NCBI GenBank assembly: GCA_035562735.1
Contig: DATMWB010000003.1
Coordinates: 44,232 to 108,231 of the forward strand
DNA length: 64,000 nucleotides
From: Candidatus Methanoperedens sp.
GTDB lineage: Bacteria > Patescibacteriota > Microgenomatia > UBA12405
Direction: 5' to 3'
Below, in pieces: positions 33,511-58,193 of this stretch (position 1 is the stretch's first letter; each line of letters starts with the position of its first letter). A model generated the notes under the pieces. It did not search any database and was not told the origin of the DNA. It worked only from the letters and a program-made list of their open reading frames with translations. A program made the translations under genes and the position numbers.

Positions 33511-33527
33511 TCCATTTAAAAAAATAT

Positions 33528-34010: not shown

Positions 34011-34027
34011 AAAGCTAATTGCAATAA

Positions 34028-34063: not shown

Positions 34064-34074
34064 TATTTTAAAAT

Positions 34075-34102
34075 AAAAAAGTCCCCTGTATAGGGGACTT
34101 TT
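34075..34102. terminator. Rho-independent terminator after rpsG (bidirectional-type hairpin)
   Basis: AAAAAGTCCCCT-gtat-AGGGGACTTTTT, a 12-bp stem with flanking A and T runs. Confidence 0.75.
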
Positions 34103-34136
34103 TAGTTATTTGTTCTATCATGTATCTGATATATAT

Positions 34137-34145
34137 TGATATAAT
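34137..34145 (+). promoter_or_regulatory. Extended -10 TGaTATAAT 5 nt upstream of ATG 34151 (leaderless geometry)
   Basis: Its spacing to the ATG is identical to that of the 7737 element, with no SD. Confidence 0.4.
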
Positions 34146-34150
34146 AAGTA

Positions 34151-34570
34151 ATGTCGAGGTATGAATTGTTTCAACACTTAGTTGGAGAAGAAATAAGAAA
34201 AAGTAATCCCCATGGCAAATTACAGGTTGTTGGCGATACCTCTACTTTAGAAGACGACGAAAGACTTTTCCATATCGCTGGGGAACTCATTTCAAATTGT
34301 GCCGAAAAGGGAGCTGAAGAGATAACTTTAACTCTAACACCACGGCTAATAGTCGTAGAAGACAATTTAGTTCACACCCCAGAAGAAGTGGAAAAAATTC
34401 TTGAAAATATTCAGCAACCACTACCAGTAACCAATAAAGCTATCGTTGAAAACGGTCAATCAATTCGTGGTTTTGGTATTTTTAGTGTTCGAAACACTCT
34501 CCTTGAAATTGGTGCTTCCTTGTTTTATGAACATCGTGATGGTCGAATAATCGCTAGAGTTGAATTATAA
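34151..34570 (+). CDS. Small GHKL (histidine-kinase-like) ATPase domain protein, anti-sigma-factor/SpoIIAB-like size
   Basis: 139 aa with an N-box-like ELISNCAEKG and a G-box-like GFGIFSVRNTLLEIGASL. There is no sensor or DHp domain. Confidence 0.5.
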   Translation: MSRYELFQHLVGEEIRKSNPHGKLQVVGDTSTLEDDERLFHIAGELISNCAEKGAEEITLTLTPRLIVVEDNLVHTPEEVEKILENIQQPLPVTNKAIVENGQSIRGFGIFSVRNTLLEIGASLFYEHRDGRIIARVEL

Positions 34571-34615
34571 GAAAGAAATCTGGTTAGACTATTTTGTTTT
34601 GTGTTAACATAATTT

Positions 34616-36004
34616 ATGTCATTATTTTCAAAATCAAAAGTTGTTCTCTGGCCAAAAGATGAAAGCCTAGAAATATATTTAGACCGAAGTGACAACAACA
34701 CCTTTTCTTTTGAAACAAATCTTTGGAGTGAACAAGGTGATGATAGTTTAAATAGTTTAGCCAGCTTTTTTAAACAAAATAAAATATCCGAGGCATATGT
34801 TCTCCTAAATGACACTTATGTTATTACCAAGACTTTTATTTACGATTCTGTTGTCACTAAGCTCGATCCAAATGAAGTCATAACCTTGGCCAAAGATTCA
34901 ATAGATTTCAAAATATCACCCGAGTCTGTTACCTTTGATCTTGAGTCTGAAGGAAATCGGACTTTAGTTCGAACAAGAATTTTCAATCAGGATAAATTTC
35001 AAATACTTACTGCCAATCTCCAAAAAATTGGTCTAAAAGTACTTGATTTTGAAACCGTATCTTCATCTGTGGCCAAGCTTTACACCAATTTTGATAACGG
35101 TCAGTATTTTTTCTTTTACCCCATAAATACCCACGATTACGTTGCTATCCTAAGCAACAAAGGAAATGTTTACTTAACCTCAATTATCAAAAAATCTCTT
35201 CCGGAACTTAAGAAGTTATTAAATTACGCTCAAGCCTATTTTAGCAACAAGGAGCCAACCCAATATTTGCCAGATACCAATTACAACGAATCCGAAATTT
35301 GTCAACGTTTTCAAAAAGCGTCAAATCTACCTCTACCAGTTCTATCTTTCTTTATTGGCCAATCGAAGCCTGTTGCTGATATAATAAAGACAGAAACAAC
35401 CCAGACGCTTCCCCCAACGCCTACTTCTAATATTATCGATTCAACAAATAATCCCTTACCAACTATGGAAAACAACAAAAAAAGTCTTTTACCAATAATT
35501 GCTGTTTTTATCATCACCGCAATTGTTGCCTCAATTATTGTTTGGTTTATATTAAACCAAAACAAAGATACTGATTTAAATCCAGGTGGTGAAAACCCGG
35601 CAGAAGAAATAAGTAGTACCCCAATGGCAACCGAAGAACCAACTCCTACTATTGCTGAGCTTAGTAAAACCCTAAAAATACAGGTGCTAAATGCCACCGA
35701 CATAAATGGTCAAGCAGCCACTATCAAAACTGAATTGACCAACCTCGGTTTCACTAGTATCAATACAGGTAACAGCAAAGAAGCAGCAACCAGCAACCAA
35801 ATTCAAATAAAAAAGACCATTGTTCCGGACTATTTTCTTAAAAACGTGGCTCAATTTTCGACAGCAACAGTCAGTGAGTTATCTGAAACTTCAACCTATG
35901 ATGTTGTCTTTATTATTGGGGTAGATCTCAAAACTGGAAGTGCCGCTCCTACAGCGACAACTCCCACTACAACTAGTACCCCATCAGCTACTCCCACTAA
36001 TTAG
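34616..36004 (+). CDS. Membrane protein with a PilM-like cytoplasmic N-domain, one TM helix and a C-terminal LytR_C domain
   Basis: The N-terminal ~290 aa resemble PilM (…FQILTANLQKIGLKVLDFETVSSSVAKLY). A TM helix (LLPIIAVFIITAIVASIIVWFIL) and a LytR_C-like C-terminus (LKIQVLNATDINGQAATIKTELTNLGF…VVFIIGVDL) follow. Confidence 0.5.
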   Translation: MSLFSKSKVVLWPKDESLEIYLDRSDNNTFSFETNLWSEQGDDSLNSLASFFKQNKISEAYVLLNDTYVITKTFIYDSVVTKLDPNEVITLAKDSIDFKISPESVTFDLESEGNRTLVRTRIFNQDKFQILTANLQKIGLKVLDFETVSSSVAKLYTNFDNGQYFFFYPINTHDYVAILSNKGNVYLTSIIKKSLPELKKLLNYAQAYFSNKEPTQYLPDTNYNESEICQRFQKASNLPLPVLSFFIGQSKPVADIIKTETTQTLPPTPTSNIIDSTNNPLPTMENNKKSLLPIIAVFIITAIVASIIVWFILNQNKDTDLNPGGENPAEEISSTPMATEEPTPTIAELSKTLKIQVLNATDINGQAATIKTELTNLGFTSINTGNSKEAATSNQIQIKKTIVPDYFLKNVAQFSTATVSELSETSTYDVVFIIGVDLKTGSAAPTATTPTTTSTPSATPTN

Positions 36005-36021
36005 TAATTAAAAAAATCACT

Positions 36022-37041
36022 ATGAAAATCCTTGTTACAGGAGGTTGCGGTTTTATTGGTAGTAATTTTATCCATTATTGGTTGTCGCGACATCCCGATG
36101 ACACCATTGTAAATTTAGATAAATTGACCTATGCTGCCAATCCAGAATCACTACGTGATTTAGAAAAAAATCCTCATTATCAATTTATCAAAGCTGACAT
36201 TTGTGATGAGGTTGCGGTCGACAAAGTTATGTCCGAAGGTATCGAGCTCATAATTCATTTTGCCGCCGAATCACATGTTGATCGTTCTATCGATGATCCA
36301 CTTCTTTTTGTAAAGACCAACGTTTTAGGAACTTACACCCTTTTAAATTCCGCAAAAAAACACGGCAACATCCGTTTTCACCATGTTTCCACTGACGAAG
36401 TTTTTGGAGCTCTCCCCTTAGATACTGAGGAAAAATTCACTGAAGATACTCACTATGATCCCCGAAGTCCATACTCAGCTTCAAAAGCATCTTCAGATCA
36501 CTTTGTTAGATCTTTCTATCATACATTTAATTTGCCAGTGACTATCAGTAATTGTTCAAATAACTATGGTGCCTTTCAATCTCCAGAAAAATTTGTGCCA
36601 AGAATGATTACTAATCTTATGGATGGTAAAAAAATTCCTGTCTATGGAGATGGTCTCTATGTCCGAGATTGGCTTTATGTTGACGACCATTGTTCTGCCA
36701 TCGAAGCTATTGTCTTAAATGGAAAAATAGGTCAGTCATACAATATTGGCGGTCTTGTCAAAGACTATTCCAACCTAGAAGTTGCCAAGACAATTCTTCA
36801 AATTATGGGTAAAACCGATGCTGAACTTGAATTTGTAGCCGATAGACCTGGTCATGATCGTCGCTATGCTGTCTCTTGGGAAAAAATTCATAATGAATTG
36901 AATTGGTCTCCCAGTCTTACCTTTGAAGAGGGGATAACAAAAACAATCAACTGGTATCAGCAAAACGAAACATGGTGGCGCGAAGCTAAGACCGAAGCTG
37001 AAGCTTTCTATGTCCGACTCAACGCTTCAAAAAACAAATAA
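36022..37041 (+). CDS. rfbB: dTDP-glucose 4,6-dehydratase
   Basis: MKILVTGGCGFIGSNF, YxxxK and an extended SDR fold. Confidence 0.88.
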   Translation: MKILVTGGCGFIGSNFIHYWLSRHPDDTIVNLDKLTYAANPESLRDLEKNPHYQFIKADICDEVAVDKVMSEGIELIIHFAAESHVDRSIDDPLLFVKTNVLGTYTLLNSAKKHGNIRFHHVSTDEVFGALPLDTEEKFTEDTHYDPRSPYSASKASSDHFVRSFYHTFNLPVTISNCSNNYGAFQSPEKFVPRMITNLMDGKKIPVYGDGLYVRDWLYVDDHCSAIEAIVLNGKIGQSYNIGGLVKDYSNLEVAKTILQIMGKTDAELEFVADRPGHDRRYAVSWEKIHNELNWSPSLTFEEGITKTINWYQQNETWWREAKTEAEAFYVRLNASKNK

Positions 37042-37045
37042 TTTG

Positions 37046-37060
37046 TTATACTGAAGCTAT
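37046..37060 (+). promoter_or_regulatory. Leaderless promoter/start module TTATACTGAAGCTAT (second identical copy)
   Basis: TGtTATACT at 37044-52 is followed 8 nt later by the rfbC ATG at 37061. The 15-mer is identical to 12837-12851. Confidence 0.35.
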
Positions 37061-37621
37061 ATGATGAAATTTACCCCACTCTCCATTCCTGGACTAGTTC
37101 TTGTTGAACCTCAAGTATTTGGTGATGAAAGAGGTTTTTTTATGGAAACTTACAGTAAAAAAGAGTTTGCTGAAGCTGGTATAAATGTTGATTTTGTTCA
37201 AGACAACCACTCCCGATCTACCCAAGGGGTGCTCCGCGGACTTCATTTTCAAAAACCACCTTTTGCCCAAGCAAAACTTGTTAGAGTTACTCAAGGTGAA
37301 GTTTTGGATGTGGCTGTTGATATTCGACCCGATTCTCCGACCTTTGGTAAATGGGATTCAGCGCATCTTACCGCTGAAAACAAAAAAATGTTTTATCTTC
37401 CCGAAGGTTTTGCACATGGATTTTATGTCTTAACCGAAACAGCCGATTTCCAATACAAGTGTACCAACTTCTACAATAAGGAATCTGAAGGCGGTCTACT
37501 TTGGAATGACCCTGATATCAATATTGCTTGGATGGCTCCAAGTCCCACTCTTTCCGACAAAGATAAAAACTGGCCAAATCTAAAAGATATTGAAGCCGAG
37601 CTTAAAACCCTCAAGTGGTAA
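37061..37621 (+). CDS. rfbC: dTDP-4-dehydrorhamnose 3,5-epimerase
   Basis: Cupin RmlC motifs (…RGFFMETY…, …RGLHFQ…). Confidence 0.88.
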   Translation: MMKFTPLSIPGLVLVEPQVFGDERGFFMETYSKKEFAEAGINVDFVQDNHSRSTQGVLRGLHFQKPPFAQAKLVRVTQGEVLDVAVDIRPDSPTFGKWDSAHLTAENKKMFYLPEGFAHGFYVLTETADFQYKCTNFYNKESEGGLLWNDPDINIAWMAPSPTLSDKDKNWPNLKDIEAELKTLKW

Positions 37622-37684
37622 CAATAAATTTAACATTAAAAAATCTTATACTTTTTAATGAATTTTCAATAAACAACTTTTTGT

Positions 37685-37716
37685 CCCCCTTATTAAGGGG
37701 GATTAAGGGGGTTTAA
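37685..37716 (+). terminator. G/C hairpin (CCCCCTTA…TAAGGGGG), a duplicated GGGGG arm and then TTT after rfbC
   Basis: CCCCCTTATTAAGGGGGATTAAGGGGGTTT. Confidence 0.3.
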
Positions 37717-37739
37717 ATTATTAATTTAAAAATTTTTTT

Positions 37740-38624
37740 ATGAAAATTATTGGCACAGGTCTCACCGGTTTGGTTGGTTCAAGAATCATTGAGCTTAATC
37801 CAGATGTTGAATTCATCAATATTTCTATTGAAACTGGGATCAGTATCCTTGATCCTATTCAGCTAGAAAAAGTGTTTACCGACAATCCTGACGCAGATGC
37901 GGTTTTACATCTGGCTGCCTTTACTGACACCAACGGTGCCTGGGAGCAAAACGGTGATAAAAATGGTCTATGTTATCAGCTCAATGTCACCGGAACTCAA
38001 AATATTGTTGATTTGTGTAAAAAATACGATAAATATTTAATTCATATTTCCACCGACTTTGTTTTTGATGGAAAAAAAGTTGGAAAATATACCGAAGATG
38101 ACCTTCCAAATCCTATCGAATGGTACGGTCAAACCAAATATTTTTCTGAAAAAGTTGTCCTAGATTCAGGCATTTTATCCTCTATTGTTAGACTGGCTTT
38201 TCCTTACCGAGCCAATTTTGAACCCAAAAAAGATATCATCCGCAAAATTATTGATGGTTTCAAAGCTGGTAAGCTCTATCCCCAATGGACCGACCATTTT
38301 ACCAGTCCAGTCTTTATTGACGATATAGCCAATGCCCTAAAAGTATTTTTTGAAAAAAAACCTATCGGAATCTATCACTTAGTTGGTTCCTCTTCGCAGT
38401 CACCTTTTGAAATGTGTCAATTCATCGCAGAAGTTTTTGGATTTGATAAAAGTATAGTTCAAGCCAGCACCTTGGCAGATTATGTCAAATCATTACCCGA
38501 AGGTTCACGCCCATGGCAATACAATTTATCCTTAAGTAACGAAAAAATAAAATCTCTCGGTATTCAAATCAAAACCTTAAAAGAAGGTCTTGAAGAGATG
38601 AAAAGACAGACGGAAAACACTTGA
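37740..38624 (+). CDS. rfbD: dTDP-4-dehydrorhamnose reductase-like NAD(P)-dependent epimerase/dehydratase
   Basis: It has a Rossmann N-terminus (GTGLTGLVGS) and the YGQTKYFSE catalytic motif typical of RmlD. Confidence 0.65.
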   Translation: MKIIGTGLTGLVGSRIIELNPDVEFINISIETGISILDPIQLEKVFTDNPDADAVLHLAAFTDTNGAWEQNGDKNGLCYQLNVTGTQNIVDLCKKYDKYLIHISTDFVFDGKKVGKYTEDDLPNPIEWYGQTKYFSEKVVLDSGILSSIVRLAFPYRANFEPKKDIIRKIIDGFKAGKLYPQWTDHFTSPVFIDDIANALKVFFEKKPIGIYHLVGSSSQSPFEMCQFIAEVFGFDKSIVQASTLADYVKSLPEGSRPWQYNLSLSNEKIKSLGIQIKTLKEGLEEMKRQTENT

Positions 38625-38647
38625 TGGTTTAGTTGTTACAATTAGAT

Positions 38648-39742
38648 ATGGATAGAGAACCTCCAGCTTCTGTATTTTCTAATGCAAACAAACTGTCTGC
38701 ATTTCCAAAACAAGTCGAATCAGTTTTAAGAGGTGAAACTATTGCTCCAATCACCCTTGAAATTCAACCTAGCTCCGGTTGTAATCACGCCTGTCCCAAA
38801 TGTTCCGGAAAATTAAATAAAGATTCTCCTTATTATGCCGAAATAAGAAAACAATTTACATTTATAAACCCCGATGTGGTTAAGGGAATTGTCGATTCTC
38901 CAAGAGCTCCATTAGGTGTAGTTTTTGCTGGTGATACAGGTGACCCTCTTCTTCATCCCCAGATTGAGTCACTTATAGACATTGTCAGCGATAAAAACAT
39001 TTCTATCTCAGTGATTACTAATGGCCAGGCATTAAATCAGAGTATTTCCCAAAAAATTGTGCAAAGATGTCAGGGTGTAAGGGTCTCATTAGATGCTTTC
39101 GACGCAAAGTCACACCAATTGACACATGGTAGCAATGGTGAACAATGGGAAAGTTTATTAGAAAACATTAGAGAGCTTGTCAGTCTACGGGATAATTCTC
39201 CGAAAAAAAAAGAATGTTTAATTGGTATTGGTTATTTGACCGCAAAACACACACTCGGTGGAATCATTGAGGCTACAAAACTTGCAAAAGATCTTGGAGT
39301 AGATTATATCCATTTTCGCCCATTTTTTTATTCTAATGATGAAATTAGTCAGGAAATTATCGAAAGTTGTAAAGCTTTAGAAGATGAAAATTTCTCTGTA
39401 ATATTTCCCGGCGCCAAATATCAAAATTCAAAAGATAGAAACTATCCAACGTGTAAGGCTGCAAATTTTGTAACAGTTATAAATCCTAAAGGAGAAGCAT
39501 ATATTTGTTGTCATCACATAGGACAAGAAAATGCCAAAATTGATACCATTGGAACAAATCCAGAAGATTGGGATAAATTTGTTATAAGTGATAAAAGACG
39601 CGATCTAATCCAAAAATTTAATTTAACCGAATGTCCGCCATTTTGTCGTCTTCATAGTCATAATCAAACTTTATCCAAAGGAGTTTCCGTAGATTTATTA
39701 AACCAGCCTGTATCCGCCAGTCACCACGCCAAGTTTTTATAA
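38648..39742 (+). CDS. Radical SAM domain protein (possible sugar-modifying enzyme)
   Basis: It has a CxxxCxxC (SSGCNHACPKCSG) and additional C-terminal cysteines (CCHH…CPPFC). The first ATG is at 38648, while the track ORF begins at TTG 38633. Confidence 0.65.
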   Translation: MDREPPASVFSNANKLSAFPKQVESVLRGETIAPITLEIQPSSGCNHACPKCSGKLNKDSPYYAEIRKQFTFINPDVVKGIVDSPRAPLGVVFAGDTGDPLLHPQIESLIDIVSDKNISISVITNGQALNQSISQKIVQRCQGVRVSLDAFDAKSHQLTHGSNGEQWESLLENIRELVSLRDNSPKKKECLIGIGYLTAKHTLGGIIEATKLAKDLGVDYIHFRPFFYSNDEISQEIIESCKALEDENFSVIFPGAKYQNSKDRNYPTCKAANFVTVINPKGEAYICCHHIGQENAKIDTIGTNPEDWDKFVISDKRRDLIQKFNLTECPPFCRLHSHNQTLSKGVSVDLLNQPVSASHHAKFL

Positions 39743-39777
39743 TTATTTCTATTTTTCCCAGCCTTCCATTAAAAGTG

Positions 39778-39806
39778 TTGTTTTTTGCACAATTATAGGA
39801 TATAAT
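39778..39806 (+). promoter_or_regulatory. Candidate promoter TTGTTT-17-TATAAT upstream of the G+C-rich orphan gene
   Basis: A -35-like box at 39778-83 and a perfect TATAAT at 39801-06. An SD (AAGGAGAG, 39846-53) precedes ATG 39858. Confidence 0.4.
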
Positions 39807-39857
39807 ACCAATGCTTGTTTTAGCGTCGCATCTCATTTCCTAAATAAGGAGAGCTTG

Positions 39858-40535
39858 ATGAGCGACAATCGTTCTTTGACAATCGAAGGTGGGTCGACCG
39901 TGACCATCAGTTTCAAGACTGATCCCGCCAATGATTGGCAGCTAACGCTGCAAAACGTTCGGGAAGAGGAAGGCGGAATTTTCGCCGACAATTTTCTTCT
40001 TGCCCGGAAAAACGGTCAACATTTCTTTGCCAAACTCGTAAAAGTTTTGGGGATCAAAGCCGACGGATCAGAATTTCCGTACTGGCTTCCCAGGATTTTT
40101 GACATCGGGAATGGCTACAAATGTGGAGATGTCGTAATTCAGTTTCGCAAACACCCCCAGTCGAAACGCTGGATGGTTGATGTGGAATCAGAATACGGCA
40201 GCAAGTCTCCCGATCTCCTAGAAAAGGTTATCCGAATCAGTCGTTCTTCGCTTGACAATATCAAGCAGGCTGTTAAGAAAACCGTCAAGGAAACCGGACA
40301 AGACTGGCTCAACTCTCAGCGTATTGGTGGAGACAAAGTTTCCATGCATTGCGTTGACGCAGGTTGGTCACCACAGCTTTTTGCTCAGGGCAAGGTAATG
40401 GATGTTTTCGACTTCGTTGCAAATTCCCATGATGGTCCCGGGAAAATCGCACTAGTTGAAGCACTTCAACACCTTCCCACCCCCATCGCCAAGCAAGTCG
40501 CGATGTGTATCATTGTTCCTCCAACCGAGGAATAA
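39858..40535 (+). CDS. Hypothetical protein, G+C-rich orphan gene
   Basis: A 226-aa ORF with a strong SD and markedly higher G+C than its neighbours. No recognisable domain. Confidence 0.5.
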   Translation: MSDNRSLTIEGGSTVTISFKTDPANDWQLTLQNVREEEGGIFADNFLLARKNGQHFFAKLVKVLGIKADGSEFPYWLPRIFDIGNGYKCGDVVIQFRKHPQSKRWMVDVESEYGSKSPDLLEKVIRISRSSLDNIKQAVKKTVKETGQDWLNSQRIGGDKVSMHCVDAGWSPQLFAQGKVMDVFDFVANSHDGPGKIALVEALQHLPTPIAKQVAMCIIVPPTEE

Positions 40536-40631
40536 AAAACTAGCCAGATGCTAGAACAAGCATGCCGACACCCCATGTGTTGACGTTTTAAGCTGACGTC
40601 TCCTACGTTCGGTCGAAGCACAATTTTTTAT

Positions 40632-40689
40632 GTGTCCTCTTCTCTGATTTCAGACTTCGGTCTGTTTAAAAAATCAGGGAAGGGGACAC
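40632..40689. promoter_or_regulatory. Nested hairpin with a 19-bp outer stem (2 G·U if RNA) enclosing a 5-bp stem with a UUCG tetraloop
   Basis: GTGTCCTCTTCTCTGATTT-[CAGAC-TTCG-GTCTG]-tttaaaa-AAATCAGGGAAGGGGACAC. No U-run follows in either orientation, so it is not a canonical terminator. Confidence 0.5.
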
Positions 40690-40698
40690 AGTTATATT

Positions 40699-41934
40699 TC
40701 AAATTCTCTTCCCCACTCTCTCTCCCTCTCTCACAGCATAATTAATACCCCTGTCTTCCGGATATATTTGTGCAAAGTTAACATGAATAACTTTATTTTC
40801 TACATTAGTTTTTCTCTCCGTCTTGTCATTATAATTTTTGGTAACTATATGTTGTGCATATTTAAATCTAAAAACATGTTTTTCAATAAGTCCTTTTTCA
40901 CTAAATTCAGGAAAAATTTTCTTTAAATAGTCAAAAAAATCTTTTTCAATTAAAGAGTCTTTGCATGTAAAATATTTGTGATTTTGGGGCAAATAAGTCC
41001 CCATATAATAAATATTTTTTCCGCCATAATTCTCTGTCCCCATTAGGTTTGTATGTTGAATAAAGGCCAAAAAAGGGGAGTTGATATCATTGATATTATG
41101 CCAATAATAAGGACTTAAACTCTGTTTTGAAGAAAAAACCATCGTCACCGCTCCCAAATAATCAATACCATCTAATGGCGCCGAGCTAATAATTCTATCG
41201 AATCCGTCATCGCGAGTGTAATCACGAAGCAATCTTTCTGGATTGGTCTCAATATTCGTCTTTATCTCTCCTCCCAACTCTTTTATTCTTTTTTCCAATT
41301 CATCAATAATTATTTGAAATCCTCCTTCCATATAACCTAGATACTCTTTCCCCCTTTCACTCGAATTACCTCTTGTATGAATTCTTGCCCACATCCATGC
41401 CATTGAAATATCTTGATATCTATCGTTAAATTTACCTTTTAATAGTGGCTCCCAGACTACTTTATAAGCATTTTCCCCACACCATTTTCTCATCCACTCA
41501 TAAGCCAAAACATCTTCAAATTTCTTCCAATTCTTTTCTCTTTCTAGATAGATTTTAACTAGTCCCAATCTCAACTTATCAAATAAATTTAGAGGTTTAA
41601 ATTTTAATAAATCTATTACCCCTGCAAACGGATATATAGTTCCACTGTAATATAGAGCAGTTTTACTCTCAAACCATTTTAACTTATTTTCCAAACCCAA
41701 CTCCTTGATCAAAGCAATTATTTCTTTGTCAGTTTTAAAAATGTGATGATAAGCTTTCTCTAAATTCGTCCCTTCAATTTTAAATCCCCCCAACAATCCA
41801 CCCAAACTATCACTTCTCTCAAAAATTATTACCTTATGACCCTTTTGAAGCATTCTGTATCCCACCACCAAACCTGTTATTCCTCCGCCGATTATTGCAA
41901 TTTTTTGTTTTTTCACTTCCAAATTATATCTCAA
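40699..41934 (-). CDS. FAD-dependent oxidoreductase (amine-oxidase / UDP-galactopyranose-mutase-like Rossmann family)
   Basis: It has the dinucleotide-binding motif IAIIGGGITGLVVG…E…GGL at the N-terminus and is about 410 aa. It sits in a sugar-nucleotide context. Confidence 0.6.
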   Translation of the reverse strand: MRYNLEVKKQKIAIIGGGITGLVVGYRMLQKGHKVIIFERSDSLGGLLGGFKIEGTNLEKAYHHIFKTDKEIIALIKELGLENKLKWFESKTALYYSGTIYPFAGVIDLLKFKPLNLFDKLRLGLVKIYLEREKNWKKFEDVLAYEWMRKWCGENAYKVVWEPLLKGKFNDRYQDISMAWMWARIHTRGNSSERGKEYLGYMEGGFQIIIDELEKRIKELGGEIKTNIETNPERLLRDYTRDDGFDRIISSAPLDGIDYLGAVTMVFSSKQSLSPYYWHNINDINSPFLAFIQHTNLMGTENYGGKNIYYMGTYLPQNHKYFTCKDSLIEKDFFDYLKKIFPEFSEKGLIEKHVFRFKYAQHIVTKNYNDKTERKTNVENKVIHVNFAQIYPEDRGINYAVREGERVGKRI

Positions 41935-41949
41935 TCAGCTTATAACGGG

Positions 41950-41958
41950 TGTTAGAAT
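41950..41958 (+). promoter_or_regulatory. Extended -10 TGtTAGAAT 7 nt upstream of ATG 41966 (leaderless geometry)
   Basis: TG-n-TAGAAT with the ATG at 41966 and no SD. Confidence 0.35.
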
Positions 41959-41965
41959 TAAAAAT

Positions 41966-42214
41966 ATGGAAAATAAACAAAATAAAAAGAATTTTTTAGC
42001 CTTGGGTCGAACTCATATGGCTAATGAAAGAACTATGTTATCTTATTGGCGCACCGCTCTAACATTTTTAGTTCTTGGCGCCTATCTAATCAGACAAACT
42101 CCCGCCGAAGAATTTATATTACCCGCCACAATTGCTATTTTATTTGGTGTTGTACTCTTTATTTTTGGAACAGTTAAGTTCTATCAATTTAAAAAAATTA
42201 TCAACAACAGTTAG
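41966..42214 (+). CDS. DUF202/YidH-family small membrane protein
   Basis: It has the ANERTMLSYWRTALTFLVLG signature and two TM helices. Confidence 0.55.
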   Translation: MENKQNKKNFLALGRTHMANERTMLSYWRTALTFLVLGAYLIRQTPAEEFILPATIAILFGVVLFIFGTVKFYQFKKIINNS

Positions 42215-42264
42215 CTTTGGAAAATCCTACCCAAACAAGATTTTTCGTGATATCATAATCAAGT

Positions 42265-42300
42265 CAAAAAAAGCGGGTGTCTTGCCCGTTTTTATTTTTT
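42265..42300. terminator. A-run / GCGGG…CCCG hairpin / T-run (bidirectional-type)
   Basis: AAAAAAGCGGGTGTCTTGCCCGTTTTTATTTTTT. Confidence 0.45.
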
Positions 42301-42316
42301 TACTATTTATCTATTA
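42296..42316 (+). promoter_or_regulatory. Second copy of the 21-bp motif TTTTTTACTATTTATCTATTA, upstream of fusA
   Basis: Identical to 5759-5779. Confidence 0.35.
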
Positions 42317-42341
42317 GTCTATTCAACTAATTATCTAAAAA

Positions 42342-44453
42342 ATGGCCGACGCAATTCAAGTCACTAAAAACCGTGTAGTTACCATGGATAAAGTCCGAAA
42401 CATCGGTATTATCGCTCATATCGATGGTGGAAAAACTACCACCACTGAACGTCTTCTTTTTTATACTGGAAAAATTCACAAAATTGGTTCTGTTGATGAA
42501 GGTACTACCACAACTGATTCAATGGTCCAAGAAAAGGAGAGGGGAATTACCATCCAATCCGCCTGTATTACCACCTTTTTTAAGAATTATCGTATCAATA
42601 TTATTGATACTCCAGGGCATGTTGATTTTACCGCTGAAGTTGAACGTTCACTTCGTGTCTTAGATGGTGCCATCATGATTTTTGACGGAAATGCCGGTGT
42701 TCAAGCCCAATCTGAAACTGTGTGGCGACAAGCCGACAAGTATCAAGTTCCTCGCCTCGCCTTTGTCAACAAAATGGACAAGGTTGGAGCATCCTTCCAA
42801 GGAACTCTTGATTCTATTACTCAAAAATTACGTTGTCCTATCGTTCCAGTTGTCTTACCTATTGGTGAAGAGCATGACTTTATGGGTGTTATTGATCTCA
42901 TGGAAATGAAGATGATTGTTTATGATAAGGATGAAGAAGGTATGGAATTTACCACCAAAGATGTTACTCCAGAATTTATAGAAGCTGCCACCAAAGCCCG
43001 CGCTGCCATGGTCGAAAAAATTGCCGGTGAAGACGAAACGCTCATGGAAAAATTCCTCAATGATGAGGAGATTTCGGTTCCAGAGCTTAAAGCTGTCCTA
43101 AGAAAAGCCACTATTGATAGAAAATTATTCCCCGTCTTTTGTGGTGCTGCTTGGAGAAACAAGGGTATTCATCCTATTCTAGACGCTATCGTTGACTACT
43201 TACCTTCTCCAATTGATTTACCTCCAACAATAGGATTTGACGTTACTACTGGCGATAAAATTTCTCGTAAACCAGAAAACAAAGAACCTTTTTCCGGACT
43301 TTTATTTAAAGTTCAATCAGATCCACATGTTGGTACCTTGTCCTATGTCCGTATTTACTCAGGTTCCATAAAAACTGGTCAAGAAGTTTACAATGCTACC
43401 AAGCAAAAAAGCGAAAGAATCGGTCGTTTACTCCTAATGCACGCTGATAAGCGTGAAGGTATAGAAGAAGGTTATGCAGGTGAAATTATTGCCTGTATTG
43501 GTTTAAAAGAATCAATAACTGGAGACACCTTGTGCGATAAATCAGCCCCAATCTCTCTTTCTCCAATCCAGTTTTCCGAACCGGTTATTTCCCTTTCTAT
43601 TGAGCCAGAAACTGCCGATGATCAGGAAAAAATGGGCGCAGCCCTCAATCGTTTAACCTCAGAAGATCCCACCTTTAGAGTTTCATACAACCATGAAACT
43701 GGCCAAACAATTATTGCTGGTATGGGTGAACTATACCTCGAAATTATTGTTGATCGTTTAAAGCGCGAATTTGGAGTTGCCGTTAAAACAGGCGCCCCAC
43801 AGGTTGCTTATCGTGAAACAATTTCTCAAAATGCCGAAGGTGAAGGTAAATATATCCACCAATCCGGTGGTCATGGTCAGTATGGTCATTGTAAAGTCCG
43901 TGTTGAACCCAAGAATCGCGGTGAAGGTATTGAGTTTGTCAATGCTATCAAGGGTGGTGTTATTCCTGCCAACTTTATTCCCGCTATTGAAAAAGGTGTT
44001 CGTGAAACTCTCCAAAAAGGTATTATTGCTGGTTACCCATGTACTGACATTAAAGTTTCAGTTTACGACGGTTCTTACCACGAAGTTGATTCTTCAGAAA
44101 TGTCATTCAAATTGGCCGGTGCTTACGCCATCAAAGATGCTTTTGGACTAGCTAGACCTCTCATCCTCGAACCTATCATGAAGTTTGAAGTTGCTACTCC
44201 TTCCGAATTTTTAGGAACAGTAATTGGTGACCTTTCTTCCAGACGCGGTCAAATTGCTGGTACCACTGAGGCTTTTGGTTTTAGTACCATCGAAGCCACC
44301 ATTCCTCTAGAGGCTGTTCGTGGTTACGCCACCGTTATCCGCTCTCTAACTCAAGGACGCGGTTCATTCTATATGGAACCAAGCCACTACGACCCAGTTC
44401 CTCGTGATATTCAGGAAAAACTAACCATCAAGACTACTGATAAAAAAGAATAA
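42342..44453 (+). CDS. fusA: Elongation factor G
   Basis: It has G-domain motifs (AHIDGGKTT, DTPGH, NKMD) and all five EF-G domains. Confidence 0.95.
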   Translation: MADAIQVTKNRVVTMDKVRNIGIIAHIDGGKTTTTERLLFYTGKIHKIGSVDEGTTTTDSMVQEKERGITIQSACITTFFKNYRINIIDTPGHVDFTAEVERSLRVLDGAIMIFDGNAGVQAQSETVWRQADKYQVPRLAFVNKMDKVGASFQGTLDSITQKLRCPIVPVVLPIGEEHDFMGVIDLMEMKMIVYDKDEEGMEFTTKDVTPEFIEAATKARAAMVEKIAGEDETLMEKFLNDEEISVPELKAVLRKATIDRKLFPVFCGAAWRNKGIHPILDAIVDYLPSPIDLPPTIGFDVTTGDKISRKPENKEPFSGLLFKVQSDPHVGTLSYVRIYSGSIKTGQEVYNATKQKSERIGRLLLMHADKREGIEEGYAGEIIACIGLKESITGDTLCDKSAPISLSPIQFSEPVISLSIEPETADDQEKMGAALNRLTSEDPTFRVSYNHETGQTIIAGMGELYLEIIVDRLKREFGVAVKTGAPQVAYRETISQNAEGEGKYIHQSGGHGQYGHCKVRVEPKNRGEGIEFVNAIKGGVIPANFIPAIEKGVRETLQKGIIAGYPCTDIKVSVYDGSYHEVDSSEMSFKLAGAYAIKDAFGLARPLILEPIMKFEVATPSEFLGTVIGDLSSRRGQIAGTTEAFGFSTIEATIPLEAVRGYATVIRSLTQGRGSFYMEPSHYDPVPRDIQEKLTIKTTDKKE

Positions 44454-44495
44454 AGTTTATCGCGAGCAAATCGAATGGTTATTGCATTCAATAAC

Positions 44496-44524
44496 TCGTC
44501 ATTGCGAGCGAAGCGAAGCAATCT
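44496..44524 (+). repeat. Interspersed repeat copy D (between the fusA stop and a terminator)
   Basis: TCGTCATTGCGAGCGAAGCGAAGCAATCT. Confidence 0.7.
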
Positions 44525-44534
44525 ATAAAAATCT

Positions 44535-44558
44535 AAACCCGCCGAAGAGGCGGGTTTT
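44535..44558 (+). terminator. Rho-independent terminator after fusA
   Basis: AAACCCGCC-gaaga-GGCGGGTTTT. Confidence 0.75.
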
Positions 44559-44560
44559 CA

Positions 44561-44589
44561 TTGACAACCTATAAAATTTGTAATAGATT
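44561..44589 (+). promoter_or_regulatory. Candidate promoter TTGACA-17-TAGATT for the orphan gene between fusA and tuf
   Basis: A perfect -35 TTGACA lies immediately after the terminator, with a 17-nt spacer and a TAGATT -10. Confidence 0.35.
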
Positions 44590-44622
44590 TATGTCAGTTA
44601 ATATTTAAAATTACAAAAAAAT

Positions 44623-45618
44623 ATGCCAGGATTTTTCGATAGATTAAAACCCCAACCAAAAAATATAGCTCCAGCTTCCGAACCAGTTATTTCCACCCCA
44701 GTTGAAGTTACAAAACCTGTTGAAGTAACTCCTCCAGTAGAACCAGATTTCAAAAACAGTCAAATAGGTACTCCATTTGAAACCCCTATTGCCTTTGCTC
44801 AAAGATATTATGAAGCTGTGAAGACAACTGGTGAATTAACTCCAGAAATGCAAACAAAAATGGCCGCCTTTACCGAAGTATCAGGTATTCTGGCTGACGG
44901 TTGGCGATCAGAACAGGAAGAAAATGCTACTCTCGAAAAATCAAAAAGACCATCAGAAAAATTAAAAGATGCTCTAAAGGCTGGTATAAGACCAAATGGT
45001 TCATATTCGGTTGATACTGCAGGAAGAGAAATCGATTGGGCTTTCCAGACTATTGTTGGTGGCGCTGAAACCAAGCTAAGTCAGGAAAAAATAGTCTCTG
45101 ACAAATCTCCAGAAGATATTGTCGCCGATTTATTTAACAGCGGTGGTCTTATCAGAAGAATCGATATGGGTAATCTAATGAGAGGTTATGCAGGAGCTTT
45201 AGAGGAACAATCTCGCGATGGTGGTTTTTTAAGGACAGAACAAATTGCTATGTGGAAATCACTTGGTGTCATTCCAGCTGAAGCTCCGAATGGTGGATCT
45301 TTTCCACTAGGTCAGGAAAATGCCTATCTAATTAGACTCTTAAAAAGAGATGGACAGACAACCGAGACGGAAGTTAAAACTGAAGATGGTCAAGCCCTAA
45401 TAGAATACAAAAGACCAACTAAAGTTGAAGGAGTCTCCGCTGTCATTAGTATAAGAAAAGATTTACTAGATAGTCATCAAAGAGTCTCGAATCCAGACGG
45501 CTACCAAATGGTAAATGGATTTCGCCTCGAATTAAGCCCCGAATTTTATACAGGGACATTAGGTATTAAACCTACGGAGGGGGTATCTGTGACACCAACA
45601 GAAAAACCAACCGAGTAA
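44623..45618 (+). CDS. Hypothetical protein inserted between fusA and tuf
   Basis: A 331-aa ORF bounded by terminators on both sides. Its N-terminus is Pro/Val/Glu-rich, and no domain is recognised. Confidence 0.5.
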   Translation: MPGFFDRLKPQPKNIAPASEPVISTPVEVTKPVEVTPPVEPDFKNSQIGTPFETPIAFAQRYYEAVKTTGELTPEMQTKMAAFTEVSGILADGWRSEQEENATLEKSKRPSEKLKDALKAGIRPNGSYSVDTAGREIDWAFQTIVGGAETKLSQEKIVSDKSPEDIVADLFNSGGLIRRIDMGNLMRGYAGALEEQSRDGGFLRTEQIAMWKSLGVIPAEAPNGGSFPLGQENAYLIRLLKRDGQTTETEVKTEDGQALIEYKRPTKVEGVSAVISIRKDLLDSHQRVSNPDGYQMVNGFRLELSPEFYTGTLGIKPTEGVSVTPTEKPTE

Positions 45619-45637
45619 AATCTCTATCTTTAACTCT

Positions 45638-45661
45638 AACCCCGCCATTCGGCGGGGTTTT
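45638..45661 (+). terminator. Rho-independent terminator
   Basis: AACCCCGCC-attc-GGCGGGGTTTT. Confidence 0.75.
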
Positions 45662-45844
45662 CATTGACCTGATTTTGTGCTATTATCCATAAATTCAGCG
45701 AATAACCTTTTAGTCTTGTTTTTACCTCCACTTCCATCTTGCGAAGCTGGTGTCTTACTGATACAATTCTAAAGTATTTTTCGCTACAATTAATTGTTAT
45801 TAATTTTCCGCGACAAGCGGATTTTTTAAAAAAAACAAAAACAT

Positions 45845-47017
45845 ATGGCTGACACCTATCAAAGAACTAAACCCCATGTTAATGTTGGTACTATTGGTCA
45901 TGTCGATCATGGTAAAACAACCTTAACTGCGGCTATTACCAAAATTCAAGGAAATGCAAAATCTTACGCCGATATCGCCAAGGGTGGTACCGTTCGTGAT
46001 GCTAACAAAATTGTTACTATTGCTATTTCCCACGTCGAATACGAATCTGAAGCTCGTCATTATGCTCATATCGACTGTCCAGGGCACGCTGACTACGTCA
46101 AAAACATGATTACCGGTGCCGCTCAAATGGACGGTGCTATTCTCGTTGTTTCTGCTCCAGATGGTCCAATGCCTCAAACTCGTGAGCACGTACTTTTAGC
46201 CAAACAAGTTAATGTTCCTTCCTTAGTCGTCTTCTTAAACAAAGTCGATCTCGTCACTGATCCAGAATTCTTGGATCTTGTCGAAATGGAAATCAGAGAT
46301 CTTTTAACTAAGTACGGCTATCCAGGTGATACTACCCCAATTGTCCGTGGTTCAGCTCTAAAAGCTCTCAATGGTGAAGCTGATGGTATCGAATCTATCA
46401 AGAAATTGATGGAAGCTCTCGATTCTTTCATTCCTGAACCTGTCCGTGAACTCGATAAGCCTTTCTTAATGCCTATCGAAGACGTCTTCTCTATCAAAGG
46501 TCGTGGCACTGTTGCTACCGGTAGAATCGAACGCGGTATTGTTAAAGTCAACGATGAAGTTGAAATCGTCGGTCTACGTGATACTAGAAAAGCTATCGTT
46601 ACTGGTGTGGAAATGTTCCACAAATCTCTTGACCAAGGTCAAGCAGGTGACAATGTCGGTTTACTCTTAAGAGGTATTGAAAAAGATGATATCGAACGTG
46701 GACAAGTCATGTCCAAAGTCGGTACCATTACTCCTCACACCGAATTCAAAGCTGAAGTACTTTTACTTAAAAAAGAAGAAGGTGGACGTCACACTCCAAT
46801 CTTTGCTGGTTACCGACCTCAAGTCTTCATCAGAACAACTGATGTCACCGGTGAAGTAACCCTTCCTGAAGGTGTTGAAATGGTTATGCCAGGTGATAAC
46901 GCCAATGTTACCGTTAAATTAATCAAACCAGTTGCTATGGAAAATGGTTTCCGCTTCGCTATTCGTGAAGGTGGATTGACCGTTGGTGCTGGTGCTATTA
47001 CCGGAATCATTAAATAA
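45845..47017 (+). CDS. tuf: Elongation factor Tu
   Basis: [22 protein letters not shown]. 390 aa. Confidence 0.95.
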
Positions 47018-58187: not shown

Positions 58188-58193
58188 AATCAT

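What the first reader, a model, noticed from the sequence alone, without database searches (positions are those of the whole stretch)
39778..40698. G+C-rich orphan gene with its own sigma70-like promoter and a nested UUCG hairpin that is not a canonical terminator
ORF 39858-40535 stands out compositionally from the whole window, with a strong SD and a TTGTTT-17-TATAAT promoter. It is followed by a 58-nt element (40632-40689) with a 19-bp outer stem (perfect in RNA, with two G·U pairs) enclosing a CAGAC-UUCG-GUCUG hairpin. No U-tract follows on either strand, so it is not a typical intrinsic terminator. It could be a recombination site, an sRNA, or an RNA stability or processing element of a laterally acquired cassette. 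The lipoprotein gene at 13839 shares the G+C excess, so both may come from the same donor.
Basis: seen in the sequence. Interest (0 to 1): 0.5.

Follow-up and report, generated by a model that had tools for sequence, protein, structure and literature searches.

The report
Self-closing structured mRNA, Nudix-fold gene
The G+C-rich gene and its odd hairpin are parts of one conserved transcription unit, found only in ultra-small (CPR) bacteria, whose messenger RNA pairs its first bases with the bases just after the stop codon and encodes an unannotated Nudix-fold protein that lacks the usual catalytic motif.

Summary
These are the G+C outlier ORF (GC3 0.50 against a window mean of 0.29, rank 1 of 61), TTGTTT-17-TATAAT, the SD, and the 58-nt nested UUCG hairpin with no U-tract. 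They are not separate features. They belong to one module conserved in 12 loci from divergent Patescibacteria (protein identity down to 25%).

The module runs as follows:
- a near-consensus promoter;
- a transcript whose first nucleotides (G[C/G]TT[T]GTT) form a 12-20 bp helix with the segment 1-25 nt after the stop codon, with compensatory changes and G.U only on the + strand;
- an SD hairpin;
- a CDS far more structured than synonymous shuffles (z -6.2);
- a ~70-nt 3' domain that is 99% conserved where EF-G is 89%;
- a terminal hairpin that occupies the same position and shares the CCCUC arm motif with canonical terminators in relatives.

The gene co-diverged with its neighbours, so I attribute the G+C excess to selection for RNA structure, not to recent transfer. 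The most likely role is a stabilised, translationally restrained mRNA, closest in logic to type I toxin mRNAs. Function is inferred, not shown.

The parts
39778..39806 (+). Sigma-70-type promoter: -35 TTGTTT (39778-39783), 17-nt spacer, -10 TATAAT (39801-39806), inside the conserved TTATAGGATATAAT
   Evidence: Sequence. All 12 family loci have TATAAT or TATATT. In 10 of 12 a TTGnnn lies 16-17 nt upstream.
39812..39827 (+). P1 5' strand: the predicted first transcribed nucleotides (TGCTTGTTTTAGCGTC). The conserved G at 39813 lies 6 nt after the -10.
   Evidence: The MFE fold of the full 889-nt transcript pairs nt 1-16 with 40547-40562. The gap from the -10 to the conserved G is 6-7 nt in 12 of 12 loci. 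Covariation is shown.
39836..39852 (+). SD hairpin: the pyrimidine stretch UUUCCU pairs with AGGAGA (the SD). The RNAalifold consensus extends the leader pairing over the AUG and codons 2-3.
   Evidence: 93% of cells paired; both-side changes at several pairs. Local fold is -18.2 kcal/mol, rank 2 of 58, but accessibility is only slightly below average.
39858..40535 (+). CDS, 225 aa: a Nudix-fold protein without a Nudix box. It is the G+C-rich outlier, and its RNA is unusually structured.
40547..40562 (+). P1 3' strand (GATGCTAGAACAAGCA), 12 nt after the stop codon, complementary to the 5' end of the transcript. It overlaps a local alternative hairpin CUAGC-CAGAU-GCUAG (40540-40554).
   Evidence: The P1 core has 0 broken cells out of 84, 3 pairs with compensatory changes, and 5 lineage-independent G.U pairs, all oriented for the + strand.
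40563..40631 (+). Conserved 3' domain: an outer stem (GCCGA/UCGGU), an inner hairpin GACGUU-UUAAGCU-GACGUC (40582-40600), the single-stranded GAAGCACAA motif (40615-40623), and a U6 tract (40624-40629).
   Evidence: 95 of 96 nt (40536-40631) are identical to L013/L014, where EF-G is 89% identical. In the inner hairpin, 4 of 6 pairs show compensatory change. Covariance model R1 hits once per locus, only after the family gene. No Rfam match.
40632..40689 (+). Terminal nested hairpin (19-bp outer stem plus CAGAC-UUCG-GUCUG) with no 3' U-tract. It ends 9 nt from the stop codon of the convergent amine-oxidase gene (40699-41934, - strand).
   Evidence: Same position and shared CCCUC arm motif as canonical terminators in L011, L006 and L098 (position only in L100, L101), and as nested hairpins without a U-tract in L008, L099 and L103.

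Best explanation
The region 39778-40689 is one self-contained transcription unit. It belongs to a small family found so far only in Patescibacteria (CPR).

A near-consensus promoter starts the RNA at a conserved G[C/G]UU(U)GUU. This 5' end pairs with the 12-20 nt that follow the stop codon, forming helix P1, so the whole ORF is closed into a loop. The SD lies in a small conserved hairpin stacked next to P1. The coding region carries far more base-pairing than its protein sequence and codon usage require. After P1 come a conserved ~70-nt 3' domain and a long terminal hairpin.

I propose that this architecture makes a long-lived, RNase-resistant and translationally restrained mRNA. Its 5' end would be hidden from 5'-end-dependent decay, and its 3' end protected or defined by the terminal hairpin. 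Output would be set after transcription, by refolding, processing or a factor that binds the 3' domain. The closest known logic is the 5'-3' long-distance interaction of type I toxin mRNAs (hok, AapA1).

On this view the G+C excess is the compositional footprint of selection for RNA structure in an A+T-rich genome, not a sign of foreign origin. The product is a Nudix-fold protein whose catalytic Nudix box is absent. It is more likely a nucleotide, nucleotide-sugar or RNA-end binding protein than a standard pyrophosphohydrolase.

Shown here: the anatomy, its conservation and covariation, the fold, the absence of the box, and co-divergence with neighbouring genes.
Inferred: transcription start and end points, stability, translational restraint, the cause of the G+C excess, and the protein's activity.
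For: - Twelve loci with protein identity down to 25% and host GC from 0.35 to 0.57 all share the layout. The -10 is TATAAT or TATATT, the gap to the conserved G is 6-7 nt, and the P1 duplex is 12-20 bp (-17 to -26 kcal/mol). P1 starts at the first transcribed nucleotide, and its 3' strand starts 1-25 nt after the stop codon (sequences).
- MFE folds of six whole transcripts (~880-895 nt) each recover P1 independently. RNAalifold on seven transcripts recovers P1, the leader/SD hairpin, the 3' hairpin and the terminal hairpin. Of 133 predicted pairs, 42 have compensatory changes.
- Pair counts: P1 is 91.5% paired with 3 compensatory pairs. The 3' hairpin has 4 compensatory pairs out of 6. Slid controls give 33-47% paired, against 85.8% observed.
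- All 5 lineage-independent mismatches inside P1 are G.U on the + strand, and none is A.C.
- CDS structure against synonymous-codon shuffles gives z -6.2 for the window and -5.6, -6.1, -7.8 and -6.7 for four other lineages. Six control genes range from +1.1 to -2.7.
- The 3' non-coding region (40536-40689) differs at 2 of 154 nt between window and L013/L014. Four-fold sites of the same gene differ at 25.5%, and EF-G is 89% identical.
- Hairpin substitutions keep pairing on the + strand only. dG is -34.5 on the + strand and -25.8 on the - strand.
- Four-fold divergence equals that of EF-G and EF-Tu, so the gene is resident, and GC3 stays high (0.50, 0.52, 0.43).
- Protein: pLDDT 91.4. Fold matches include ADP-ribose pyrophosphatases, NUDT5, YffH, NrtR, NadQ, AraR, the MutY C-terminal domain and EvaA. 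No Nudix box in 30 of 30 members.
- Published analogue: in AapA1 mRNA, a 5'-3' long-distance interaction sequesters the SD and gives a stable, poorly translated transcript that is activated by 3' processing (PMC5416894).
Against: - There are no expression, end-mapping or structure-probing data, so TSS, termination, stability and translation control are all inferred.
- Predicted accessibility of the initiation region (0.47 unpaired) is only slightly below the window mean of 0.55. Translational locking is therefore not demonstrated, even in silico.
- Inside the window alone, P1 is not extreme. It ranks 2 of 59 by flank duplex energy, and its longest strict Watson-Crick run of 9 is ordinary. Its support comes from only about 12 loci in about 8 independent lineages.
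- The primary sequence of the 5' end is conserved, not only its complementarity. That also fits recognition by a protein or by RNA polymerase.
- Synonymous divergence is not clearly reduced, which is unexpected if specific CDS helices were strongly constrained.
- Unlike hok and AapA1, the 3' strand of P1 is internal, about 140 nt from the 3' end. The product is a 225-aa soluble protein, and no antisense promoter was found.
Confidence: 0.5

Rival explanations
1. The inverted repeats act at the DNA level. The protein would be a Nudix-related transcription factor like NrtR, NadQ or AraR. It would bind the conserved G[C/G]TTTGTT motif at +1 and its inverted copy after the stop codon, and so autoregulate the unit, possibly by DNA looping. 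Covariation of the two copies would then reflect co-evolution with the protein's specificity, not RNA pairing.
Against: The fold matches cover only the Nudix domain (105-145 residues). No HTH or winged-helix domain was found by Pfam in any of 30 members. All 5 independent mismatches between the two repeat copies are G.U on the + strand and none is A.C; chance gives about 0.03 if strand did not matter. Full-transcript MFE folds recover the helix in 6 of 6 cases. This model does not explain the structured CDS, the conserved 3' domain or the hairpin.
Confidence: 0.12
2. The unit is a toxin-like or abortive-infection module. The locked, stable mRNA would store a harmful Nudix-fold protein, for example one that depletes or binds an essential nucleotide. 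The protein would be made only after RNA processing or refolding under stress or phage attack, as for type I toxins.
For: The 5'-3' long-distance interaction plus the SD hairpin resembles hok and AapA1 (PMC5416894). The family is sporadic and rare: 32 representatives among 1.84 billion. It occurs in at least 6 different genomic contexts, twice next to toxin-antitoxin genes: YafQ/ParE in L011, and MazE-PIN in L103/L104.
Against: No PADLOC hit. No antisense promoter. The product is a 225-aa soluble protein, not a small membrane peptide. The 3' strand of P1 is internal, so simple 3' trimming cannot free the 5' end. The gene is stably inherited next to housekeeping genes in Shapirobacteria. The catalytic Nudix box is absent.
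Confidence: 0.13
3. The 3' non-coding region (3' domain plus terminal hairpin, about 150 nt) is the functional product in its own right. It would be a stable 3'-UTR-derived small RNA, or an RNA partner of the encoded protein, released by cleavage at or next to P1.
For: It is the most conserved stretch of the locus, at 98-99% identity where the CDS is 92% and EF-G 89%. It has its own covarying hairpin and sequence-conserved single-stranded motifs such as GAAGCA-CAAA and UGCAUAA. It is strictly linked to the gene, with one copy per locus.
Against: No evidence of a separate RNA species. P1 is short for an RNase III substrate. There is no independent conserved promoter; the weak TCGCCA-16-TATCAT inside the CDS is not above chance. 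The domain diverges beyond recognition in L100 and L101.
Confidence: 0.15
4. One reading: a laterally acquired G+C-rich cassette from a foreign donor, whose 3' hairpin is a recombination or integration site.
For: The G+C excess. Family members occur at different loci in different genomes. A radical-SAM gene is present or absent next to the unit. A 13-nt direct repeat flanks the unit in L098 and L006.
Against: Four-fold divergence matches the neighbouring housekeeping genes. The G+C excess is kept in every A+T-rich host and is absent in G+C-rich hosts. No recombinase or transposase lies within +-6 kb. No attC core sites. No relatives in phage, plasmid or IMG/VR collections. Hairpin substitutions are strand-specific, as expected for RNA. 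Codon usage is not closer to ORF 13839 than to the background.
Confidence: 0.07

Closest known systems
Type I toxin mRNAs with a 5'-3' long-distance interaction (hok/Sok fbi-tac; AapA1/IsoA1 of Helicobacter pylori, PMC5416894)
   Same: A constitutive promoter. The very 5' end of the mRNA pairs with a downstream segment beyond the ORF. The SD lies in secondary structure. The predicted result is a compact, stable, poorly translated full-length transcript.
   Different: Here the ORF is 225 aa and soluble, not a membrane peptide under 60 aa. The enclosed loop is about 730 nt, whereas those whole transcripts are about 250-400 nt. The 3' pairing strand is internal and is followed by about 140 nt of further structured RNA. 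No antisense RNA gene was found. The CDS itself carries excess structure.
Nudix superfamily: ADP-ribose pyrophosphatases/NUDT5/YffH, and the non-catalytic Nudix-like domains of NrtR, NadQ, AraR, MutY and EvaA
   Different: None of 30 members has the Nudix box GX5EX7REUXEEXGU. No Pfam Nudix hit. Profile comparison with MutT is insignificant. A different set of conserved residues is present: R97, R104, R126, R129, S131, N134, N152, R155 and the RIGG motif.
Rho-independent (intrinsic) terminators
   Same: A G+C-rich hairpin at the end of the unit. In L011, L006, L012, L098, L100 and L101 the equivalent hairpin is followed by a proper U-tract. All but L100 and L101 share the CCCUC motif in the 5' arm.
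   Different: In the window, L013, L001, L099 and L103 (L008 has a partial U-rich tail) the hairpin is long and nested, and no U-tract follows it. In the window, L001 and L099 a U6-7 tract lies immediately 5' of the hairpin instead.
3'-terminal mRNA stabiliser hairpins (REP-type elements and 3' stem-loops that block 3'-5' exonucleases; from general knowledge)
   Same: A long, very stable stem-loop at the 3' end of a transcript, without terminator features. It is selected on the transcribed strand.
   Different: This one is single-copy and gene-specific rather than a dispersed repeat. It is part of a larger conserved 3' domain.

Membership tests
Intrinsic terminator | Stable G+C-rich stem-loop at the 3' end of a transcription unit | tested here: met
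   19+5 bp, dG -34.5 kcal/mol. It lies between convergent genes.
Intrinsic terminator | U-rich tract directly 3' of the stem | tested here: not met
   The tail is AGUUAUAUUUC. It is not called by the scan, while the genome's other terminators are. The feature is met in the homologous position in L011, L006, L012, L098, L100 and L101.
Intrinsic terminator | Transcripts actually end there | not testable with these tools
   This needs Term-seq or RNA-seq.
Nudix hydrolase superfamily | Nudix alpha/beta/alpha fold | tested here: met
Nudix hydrolase superfamily | Nudix box GX5EX7REUXEEXGU (the catalytic metal-binding helix) | tested here: not met
   Strict and relaxed patterns are absent in 30 of 30 members. 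No Pfam PF00293 hit. hhalign against MutT gives probability 0.3%.
Nudix hydrolase superfamily | Pyrophosphohydrolase activity on an X-linked nucleoside diphosphate | not testable with these tools
   This needs a biochemical assay.
NrtR/NadQ/AraR Nudix-related transcription regulators | N-terminal Nudix-like effector domain | tested here: met
NrtR/NadQ/AraR Nudix-related transcription regulators | C-terminal winged-helix DNA-binding domain and a palindromic operator | tested here: inconclusive
   Only a ~50-residue helical C-terminus is present. No HTH family was found by Pfam. The fold matches align only 106-114 residues. The repeats are about 730 bp apart, not one palindrome.
Type I toxin-antitoxin (hok/Sok, AapA1/IsoA1) | 5'-3' long-distance interaction in the full-length toxin mRNA | tested here: met
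   P1 is found in 12 of 12 loci with covariation.
Type I toxin-antitoxin (hok/Sok, AapA1/IsoA1) | SD sequestered, so the full-length mRNA is translationally inert | tested here: inconclusive
   A conserved SD hairpin exists, but predicted accessibility is 0.47 against a window mean of 0.55.
Type I toxin-antitoxin (hok/Sok, AapA1/IsoA1) | Small (<60 aa) hydrophobic toxin peptide | tested here: not met
   The product is a 225-aa soluble Nudix-fold protein.
Type I toxin-antitoxin (hok/Sok, AapA1/IsoA1) | Cis-encoded antisense RNA antitoxin | tested here: not met
   No - strand promoter faces the leader or the 3' region. The only - strand matches are at chance level. A weak or atypical promoter cannot be excluded.
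Integron gene cassette / attC | Promoterless ORF followed by attC with RYYYAAC ... GTTRRRY core sites, next to an integrase | tested here: not met
   The unit has its own promoter. No core sites occur in 40501-40760 on either strand. No integrase lies in the flanks.
IS / MITE-type mobile element | Terminal inverted repeats at the element ends, a transposase, and a target-site duplication | tested here: not met
   The repeats lie inside the conserved unit: the promoter is upstream of the left repeat, and the 3' domain and hairpin are downstream of the right one. No transposase is present.
Any described RNA family (Rfam 15) | Match at or above the gathering score | tested here: not met
   No hits in the whole window at gathering thresholds. 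Only chance-level hits (E 2.5-9) appear in 39700-40800.

The most novel reading that the evidence does not exclude
The ~890-nt transcript is not merely a regulated mRNA. It would be a bifunctional structured RNA forming a dedicated ribonucleoprotein with the box-less Nudix-fold protein it encodes. The protein would recognise the base-paired 5'-triphosphate end (P1) and/or the conserved 3' domain. Together they would make a previously undescribed, CPR-specific RNA-protein module, for instance a self-guarded RNA-end-binding or sensing system. Its whole-length folding is what drives the G+C excess.
Probability: 0.12. Interest if true: 0.8.

Novelty: new variant of a known kind. Interest (0 to 1): 0.6.

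Why it matters
Candidate Phyla Radiation bacteria have tiny genomes, much unannotated gene content and almost no described RNA biology. This finding defines, with exact coordinates, a compact and testable unit with four features:
- a conserved promoter;
- an ORF-enclosing 5'-3' helix supported by covariation;
- a coding region with excess structure;
- a 3' RNA domain more conserved than EF-G.

Until now, mRNA closure of this kind has been described mainly for very short toxin messages. Seeing it around a 225-aa Nudix-fold protein would extend that principle to ordinary-sized genes.

It also offers a cautionary example for genome scanning. A strong G+C and codon outlier can reflect selection on RNA structure rather than horizontal transfer.

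Finally, it adds an unannotated branch of the Nudix fold that has lost the catalytic box. That branch is a candidate nucleotide or RNA-end binder.

Tried and rejected
- Pfam, PHROGs, NCBIfam and PADLOC scans of the protein gave nothing. Pfam on all 30 family members also gave nothing.
- PDB sequence searches with both profiles gave only chance hits.
- The first AlphaFold run, with 6 sequences, gave pLDDT 51.6 and was discarded.
- The afdb50 fold library was unavailable. BFVD gave only weak Nudix hits.
- tblastn against phage and plasmid collections found no match. IMG/VR had no protein relatives.
- A promoter+leader DNA pattern found 81 hits in IMG/VR, about the chance expectation. None lies in a unit like this one: only scattered partial reverse complements turn up, at unrelated distances.
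- The hairpin core has no hits in IMG/VR.
- Rfam gave nothing at gathering or permissive thresholds.
- No tRNA or tmRNA is present as an integration target.
- Integron attC: rejected.
- Antisense promoter: none found.
- 'Same donor as ORF 13839' by codon usage: not supported.
- Reduced synonymous rate as independent proof of CDS structure: not seen.
- SD occlusion as an outlier: not seen.
- hhalign against MutT, to place the conserved RSSxDN/QAxK segment on the Nudix box: insignificant.
- A link to nucleotide-sugar genes was considered: rmlBCD here, an rmlB-like start after the gene in L100 (my reading of its first residues), and GT2 in L099 and L103. It is not universal; L101, L008 and L011 lack it.
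Full report
**1.

ORF 39858-40535 (+, 225 aa) has GC 0.479 and GC3 0.502. The 61 long ORFs of the window average 0.378 and 0.290. The ORF ranks first on both measures, with GC3 z = 4.4. The promoter TTGTTT (39778-39783), a 17-nt spacer and TATAAT (39801-39806) are as described, and the SD AGGAG lies 6 nt before the ATG.

The 58-nt element at 40632-40689 folds into a 19-bp outer stem with two G.U pairs. It encloses CAGAC-UUCG-GUCUG, and dG is -34.5 kcal/mol. The 175-nt 3' region folds with z = -5.6 against dinucleotide shuffles. No U-tract follows on either strand. The same genome uses ordinary U-tract terminators elsewhere, for example at 34076-34103, 42269-42293 and 44535-44557.

**2. The protein family**

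The ORF is a real gene. Against the 97%-identical copy in L013 there are 42 synonymous and 6 non-synonymous codon changes, and differences by codon position are 8, 3 and 43.

It has no hit in Pfam, PHROGs, NCBIfam or PADLOC. Only six clusters turn up among 5.8 billion proteins in a word-indexed search. A full HMMER profile search of 1.84 billion representatives finds 32 proteins (25 with E < 1e-10). Most are near full length at about 200-240 aa, and a few shorter hits look like fragments. Where sources name an organism, it is Shapirobacteria, Falkowbacteria or 'Patescibacteria group', and every product name is 'hypothetical protein'. There are no relatives in phage, plasmid or IMG/VR collections.

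With 30 sequences AlphaFold gives a confident model, with pLDDT 91.4 and pTM 0.82. The 6-sequence model was poor and was not used.

- E 9e-5 to NUDT5, plus YffH;
- the non-catalytic Nudix-like domains of NrtR, NadQ, AraR and MutY;
- EvaA.

The defining Nudix box is absent in all 30 members, even in relaxed form. Profile comparison with MutT is insignificant. The family instead conserves several arginines (R97, R104, R126, R129, R155), S131, N134, N152 and an RIGG motif. This is a Nudix-fold protein that is probably not a standard pyrophosphohydrolase.

**3. The flanks are conserved as one unit**

I retrieved 12 informative loci. Protein identity to the window goes down to 25%, and host GC ranges from 0.35 to 0.57. 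Every locus shows the following (sequences):
- a -10 TATAAT or TATATT, with TTGnnn 16-17 nt upstream in 10 of 12;
- exactly 6-7 nt further on, a conserved G[C/G]TT(T)GTT, which is therefore the predicted first transcribed sequence;
- a duplex of 12-20 bp (-17 to -26 kcal/mol) between that 5' end and a segment starting 1-25 nt after the stop codon.

In the window this helix, P1, joins 39812-39827 to 40547-40562.

**4. Evidence that P1 is an RNA helix**

MFE folding of six whole transcripts of about 880-895 nt recovers P1 in each one independently, across about 730 nt. RNAalifold on seven transcripts recovers it again.

On a joined 5'/3' alignment, P1 is 91.5% paired and has three pairs with compensatory changes: GC<->CG, AU<->GC and GC<->AU. 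The whole tested structure is 85.8% paired, against 33-47% when partners are slid.

In the 12-pair core of P1, none of 84 cells is broken. The five lineage-independent non-Watson-Crick cells are all G.U as read on the + strand, and none is A.C. That argues for RNA pairing and against a pair of DNA binding sites.

A caveat applies. Within the window alone, P1 is only rank 2 of 59 genes by flank duplex energy, and its strict Watson-Crick run of 9 is ordinary. The case rests on conservation in a modest number of lineages.

**5. Other RNA features**

*SD hairpin.* The SD pairs with an upstream pyrimidine stretch in every copy, with 93% of cells paired. In the consensus, the leader pairing extends over the AUG and codons 2-3, with compensatory changes. 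The local fold energy is -18.2 kcal/mol, rank 2 of 58. Predicted accessibility of -15..+3 is 0.47 against a mean of 0.55, so translational 'locking' is an inference and not a result.

*Structured CDS.* The coding region is far more structured than synonymous-codon shuffles that keep the protein and the codon usage. The window gives z = -6.2, against -2.0, -1.7 and +0.3 for three control genes. Other lineages give -5.6, -6.1, -7.8 and -6.7. More distant members give -2.8, -1.6 and -2.3, and controls give +1.1, -2.7 and +0.6.

*3' domain.* After P1 comes a ~70-nt domain with an outer stem, an inner hairpin and a single-stranded GAAGCA-CAAA motif. The inner hairpin is GACGUU-UUAAGCU-GACGUC at 40582-40600, and four of its six pairs are compensatory. 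Between window and L013/L014, the stretch 40536-40631 is 95/96 identical and the terminal hairpin 57/58. For comparison, the CDS is 92% identical, EF-G 89%, the radical-SAM gene 90% and the amine oxidase 82%.

A covariance model of the domain hits once per locus, always just after the family gene. It hits nowhere else in the window or in about 400 kb of unrelated loci. Rfam has nothing, at gathering or permissive thresholds.

**6. The hairpin itself**

Its substitutions among window, L013 and L001 all preserve pairing on the + strand: UA>UG>CG, CG>UA, UG>CG, CG>UG and GC>GU. On the - strand they would create A.C mismatches, and dG is -34.5 on the + strand against -25.8 on the - strand. It is therefore selected as + strand RNA.

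Its position, and in most cases the CCCUC motif of its 5' arm, are shared with the terminal hairpins of all relatives:
- In L011, L006, L012, L098, L100 and L101 these are canonical terminators with U-tracts.
- In L008, L099 and L103 they are, as here, long nested hairpins without a proper U-tract.
- In L099, as in the window and L001, a U6-7 tract lies just 5' of the hairpin.

The element is thus a lineage variant of the unit's terminal stem-loop, not a degenerate accident. There are no attC-like core sites, and the hairpin core is absent from IMG/VR. The hairpin ends 9 nt from the stop codon of the convergent amine-oxidase gene.

**7. Foreign origin or structure?**

In Shapirobacteria the gene sits at the same locus, inside a block of genes inserted into the str operon: S12-S7-...-rmlBCD-(radical SAM)-unit-amine oxidase-DUF202-EF-G-EF-Tu.

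Four-fold-site divergence is 0.255 against L013. The same measure is 0.329 for EF-G and 0.171 for the radical-SAM gene. Against L001 it is 0.442, compared with 0.526 for EF-G, 0.424 for EF-Tu and 0.629 for rmlB. The gene has therefore co-diverged with its neighbours. GC3 nevertheless stays high, at 0.50, 0.52 and 0.43.

Across the family the gene exceeds host GC by 0.04-0.14 in A+T-rich hosts and by nothing in G+C-rich hosts (L008, L101).

Taken with the CDS structure excess, selection for base-pairing explains the composition better than recent transfer does. Even so, the family is rare and occurs in at least six different contexts, twice beside toxin-antitoxin genes. Occasional movement over longer timescales is therefore likely.

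Codon usage does not tie this gene to ORF 13839: r is 0.43 between the two, and 0.33 and 0.57 against the background.

**8. Interpretation**

The best-supported reading is a self-closing, heavily structured mRNA. Its paired 5' end and terminal hairpin would protect it, and its translation would be restrained and regulated after transcription.

The nearest described mechanism is the 5'-3' long-distance interaction of type I toxin mRNAs. In AapA1, that interaction sequesters the SD and yields a stable, poorly translated transcript that is activated by 3' processing (PMC5416894).

This unit fails membership of that class on three counts: the size and nature of the product, the absence of an antisense RNA, and the internal position of the 3' pairing strand. 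It works like those systems in part, but it is not one of them.

The rivals are listed with their tests in the separate fields: DNA operators for an NrtR-like regulator, a toxin or abortive-infection module, an independent 3' sRNA or RNP, and a lateral cassette with a recombination site.

**9. Verdict**

The finding is a previously undescribed, CPR-restricted RNA-plus-protein unit: a new variant of a known regulatory principle, wrapped around a new box-less branch of the Nudix fold. Function remains inferred, and the decisive experiments are simple and are listed separately.

Noticed in passing
window 13538-14745: ORF 13839-14669 is lipoprotein-like (MFHRVFVFLTVLAMLLGAAGC...) and is the second GC3 outlier of the window. 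It has a near-consensus TG-extended promoter TTGACT-17-TATAAT at 13538-13566 and a ~272-nt structured leader. A perfect 15-nt inverted repeat brackets the ORF: AATCGAGAGTGAGTA at 13672-13686 and TACTCACTCTCGATT at 14731-14745. The best strict match for any other of 59 genes is 11. Its 3' flank has a 12-bp hairpin and a CCCC-UUCG-GGGG hairpin, with no U-tract. CDS structure z is only -2.3. This may be a second ORF-bracketing helix in the same genome.
   Followed up: partly
window 40530-40554 (- strand): On the - strand, the terminator-like CTAGCATCTGGCTAG followed by TTTTTTATTC lies just at the stop codon of the family gene. On the + strand the same bases form a local hairpin, CUAGC-CAGAU-GCUAG, which competes with the 3' strand of P1. 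It is present in window, L013 and L001 but not in L008, L011 or L006.
   Followed up: partly
whole window; P0001 source name: NCBI labels the identical protein as 'MAG TPA: Candidatus Methanoperedens sp.' (an archaeon). The gene order (rpoC-S12-S7 ... EF-G-EF-Tu-S10), bacterial promoters and SD sites, and the closest relatives (Shapirobacteria) all show that the contig is Patescibacteria. This is probably a mis-binned or mislabelled MAG contig.
   Followed up: partly
window 33088-47017: The str operon is split. Between S7 (33528-34010) and EF-G (42342-44453) lie about 8 kb holding a HATPase-like ORF, a LytR_C protein, rmlB/C/D, a radical-SAM/SPASM gene, the unit studied here, a convergent amine oxidase and a DUF202 gene. 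The radical-SAM gene is present in the window and L013 but absent at the same place in L001.
   Followed up: partly
window 58027-58473: This is the third GC3 outlier (0.43). Its translation looks like low-complexity junk, and its codon usage correlates with nothing else in the window (r about 0). It is probably a spurious out-of-frame ORF over a real gene, not a third G+C-rich gene.
   Followed up: no
L098 about 4910-4935 and 5785-5800; L006 equivalent: A 13-nt direct repeat, TTTAGTCCTATAA, occurs in the promoter spacer of the unit and again just after its terminator, upstream of the next gene's promoter. It could be a duplication scar from insertion of the unit into a promoter region.
   Followed up: no
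L102 (SRR7550491 contig, 953 nt): A second, divergent family member (P0015, 33% identical) comes from the same sequencing sample as the window's own contig (L010). It has the same promoter, leader and post-stop complement. Either a co-occurring organism or a second copy carries the module.
   Followed up: no
L011 154-414; L103 4087-4779; L104 15-437: Family genes lie directly downstream of toxin-antitoxin genes in two unrelated contexts: YafQ/ParE-like in L011, and MazE-PIN in L103 and L104.
   Followed up: no
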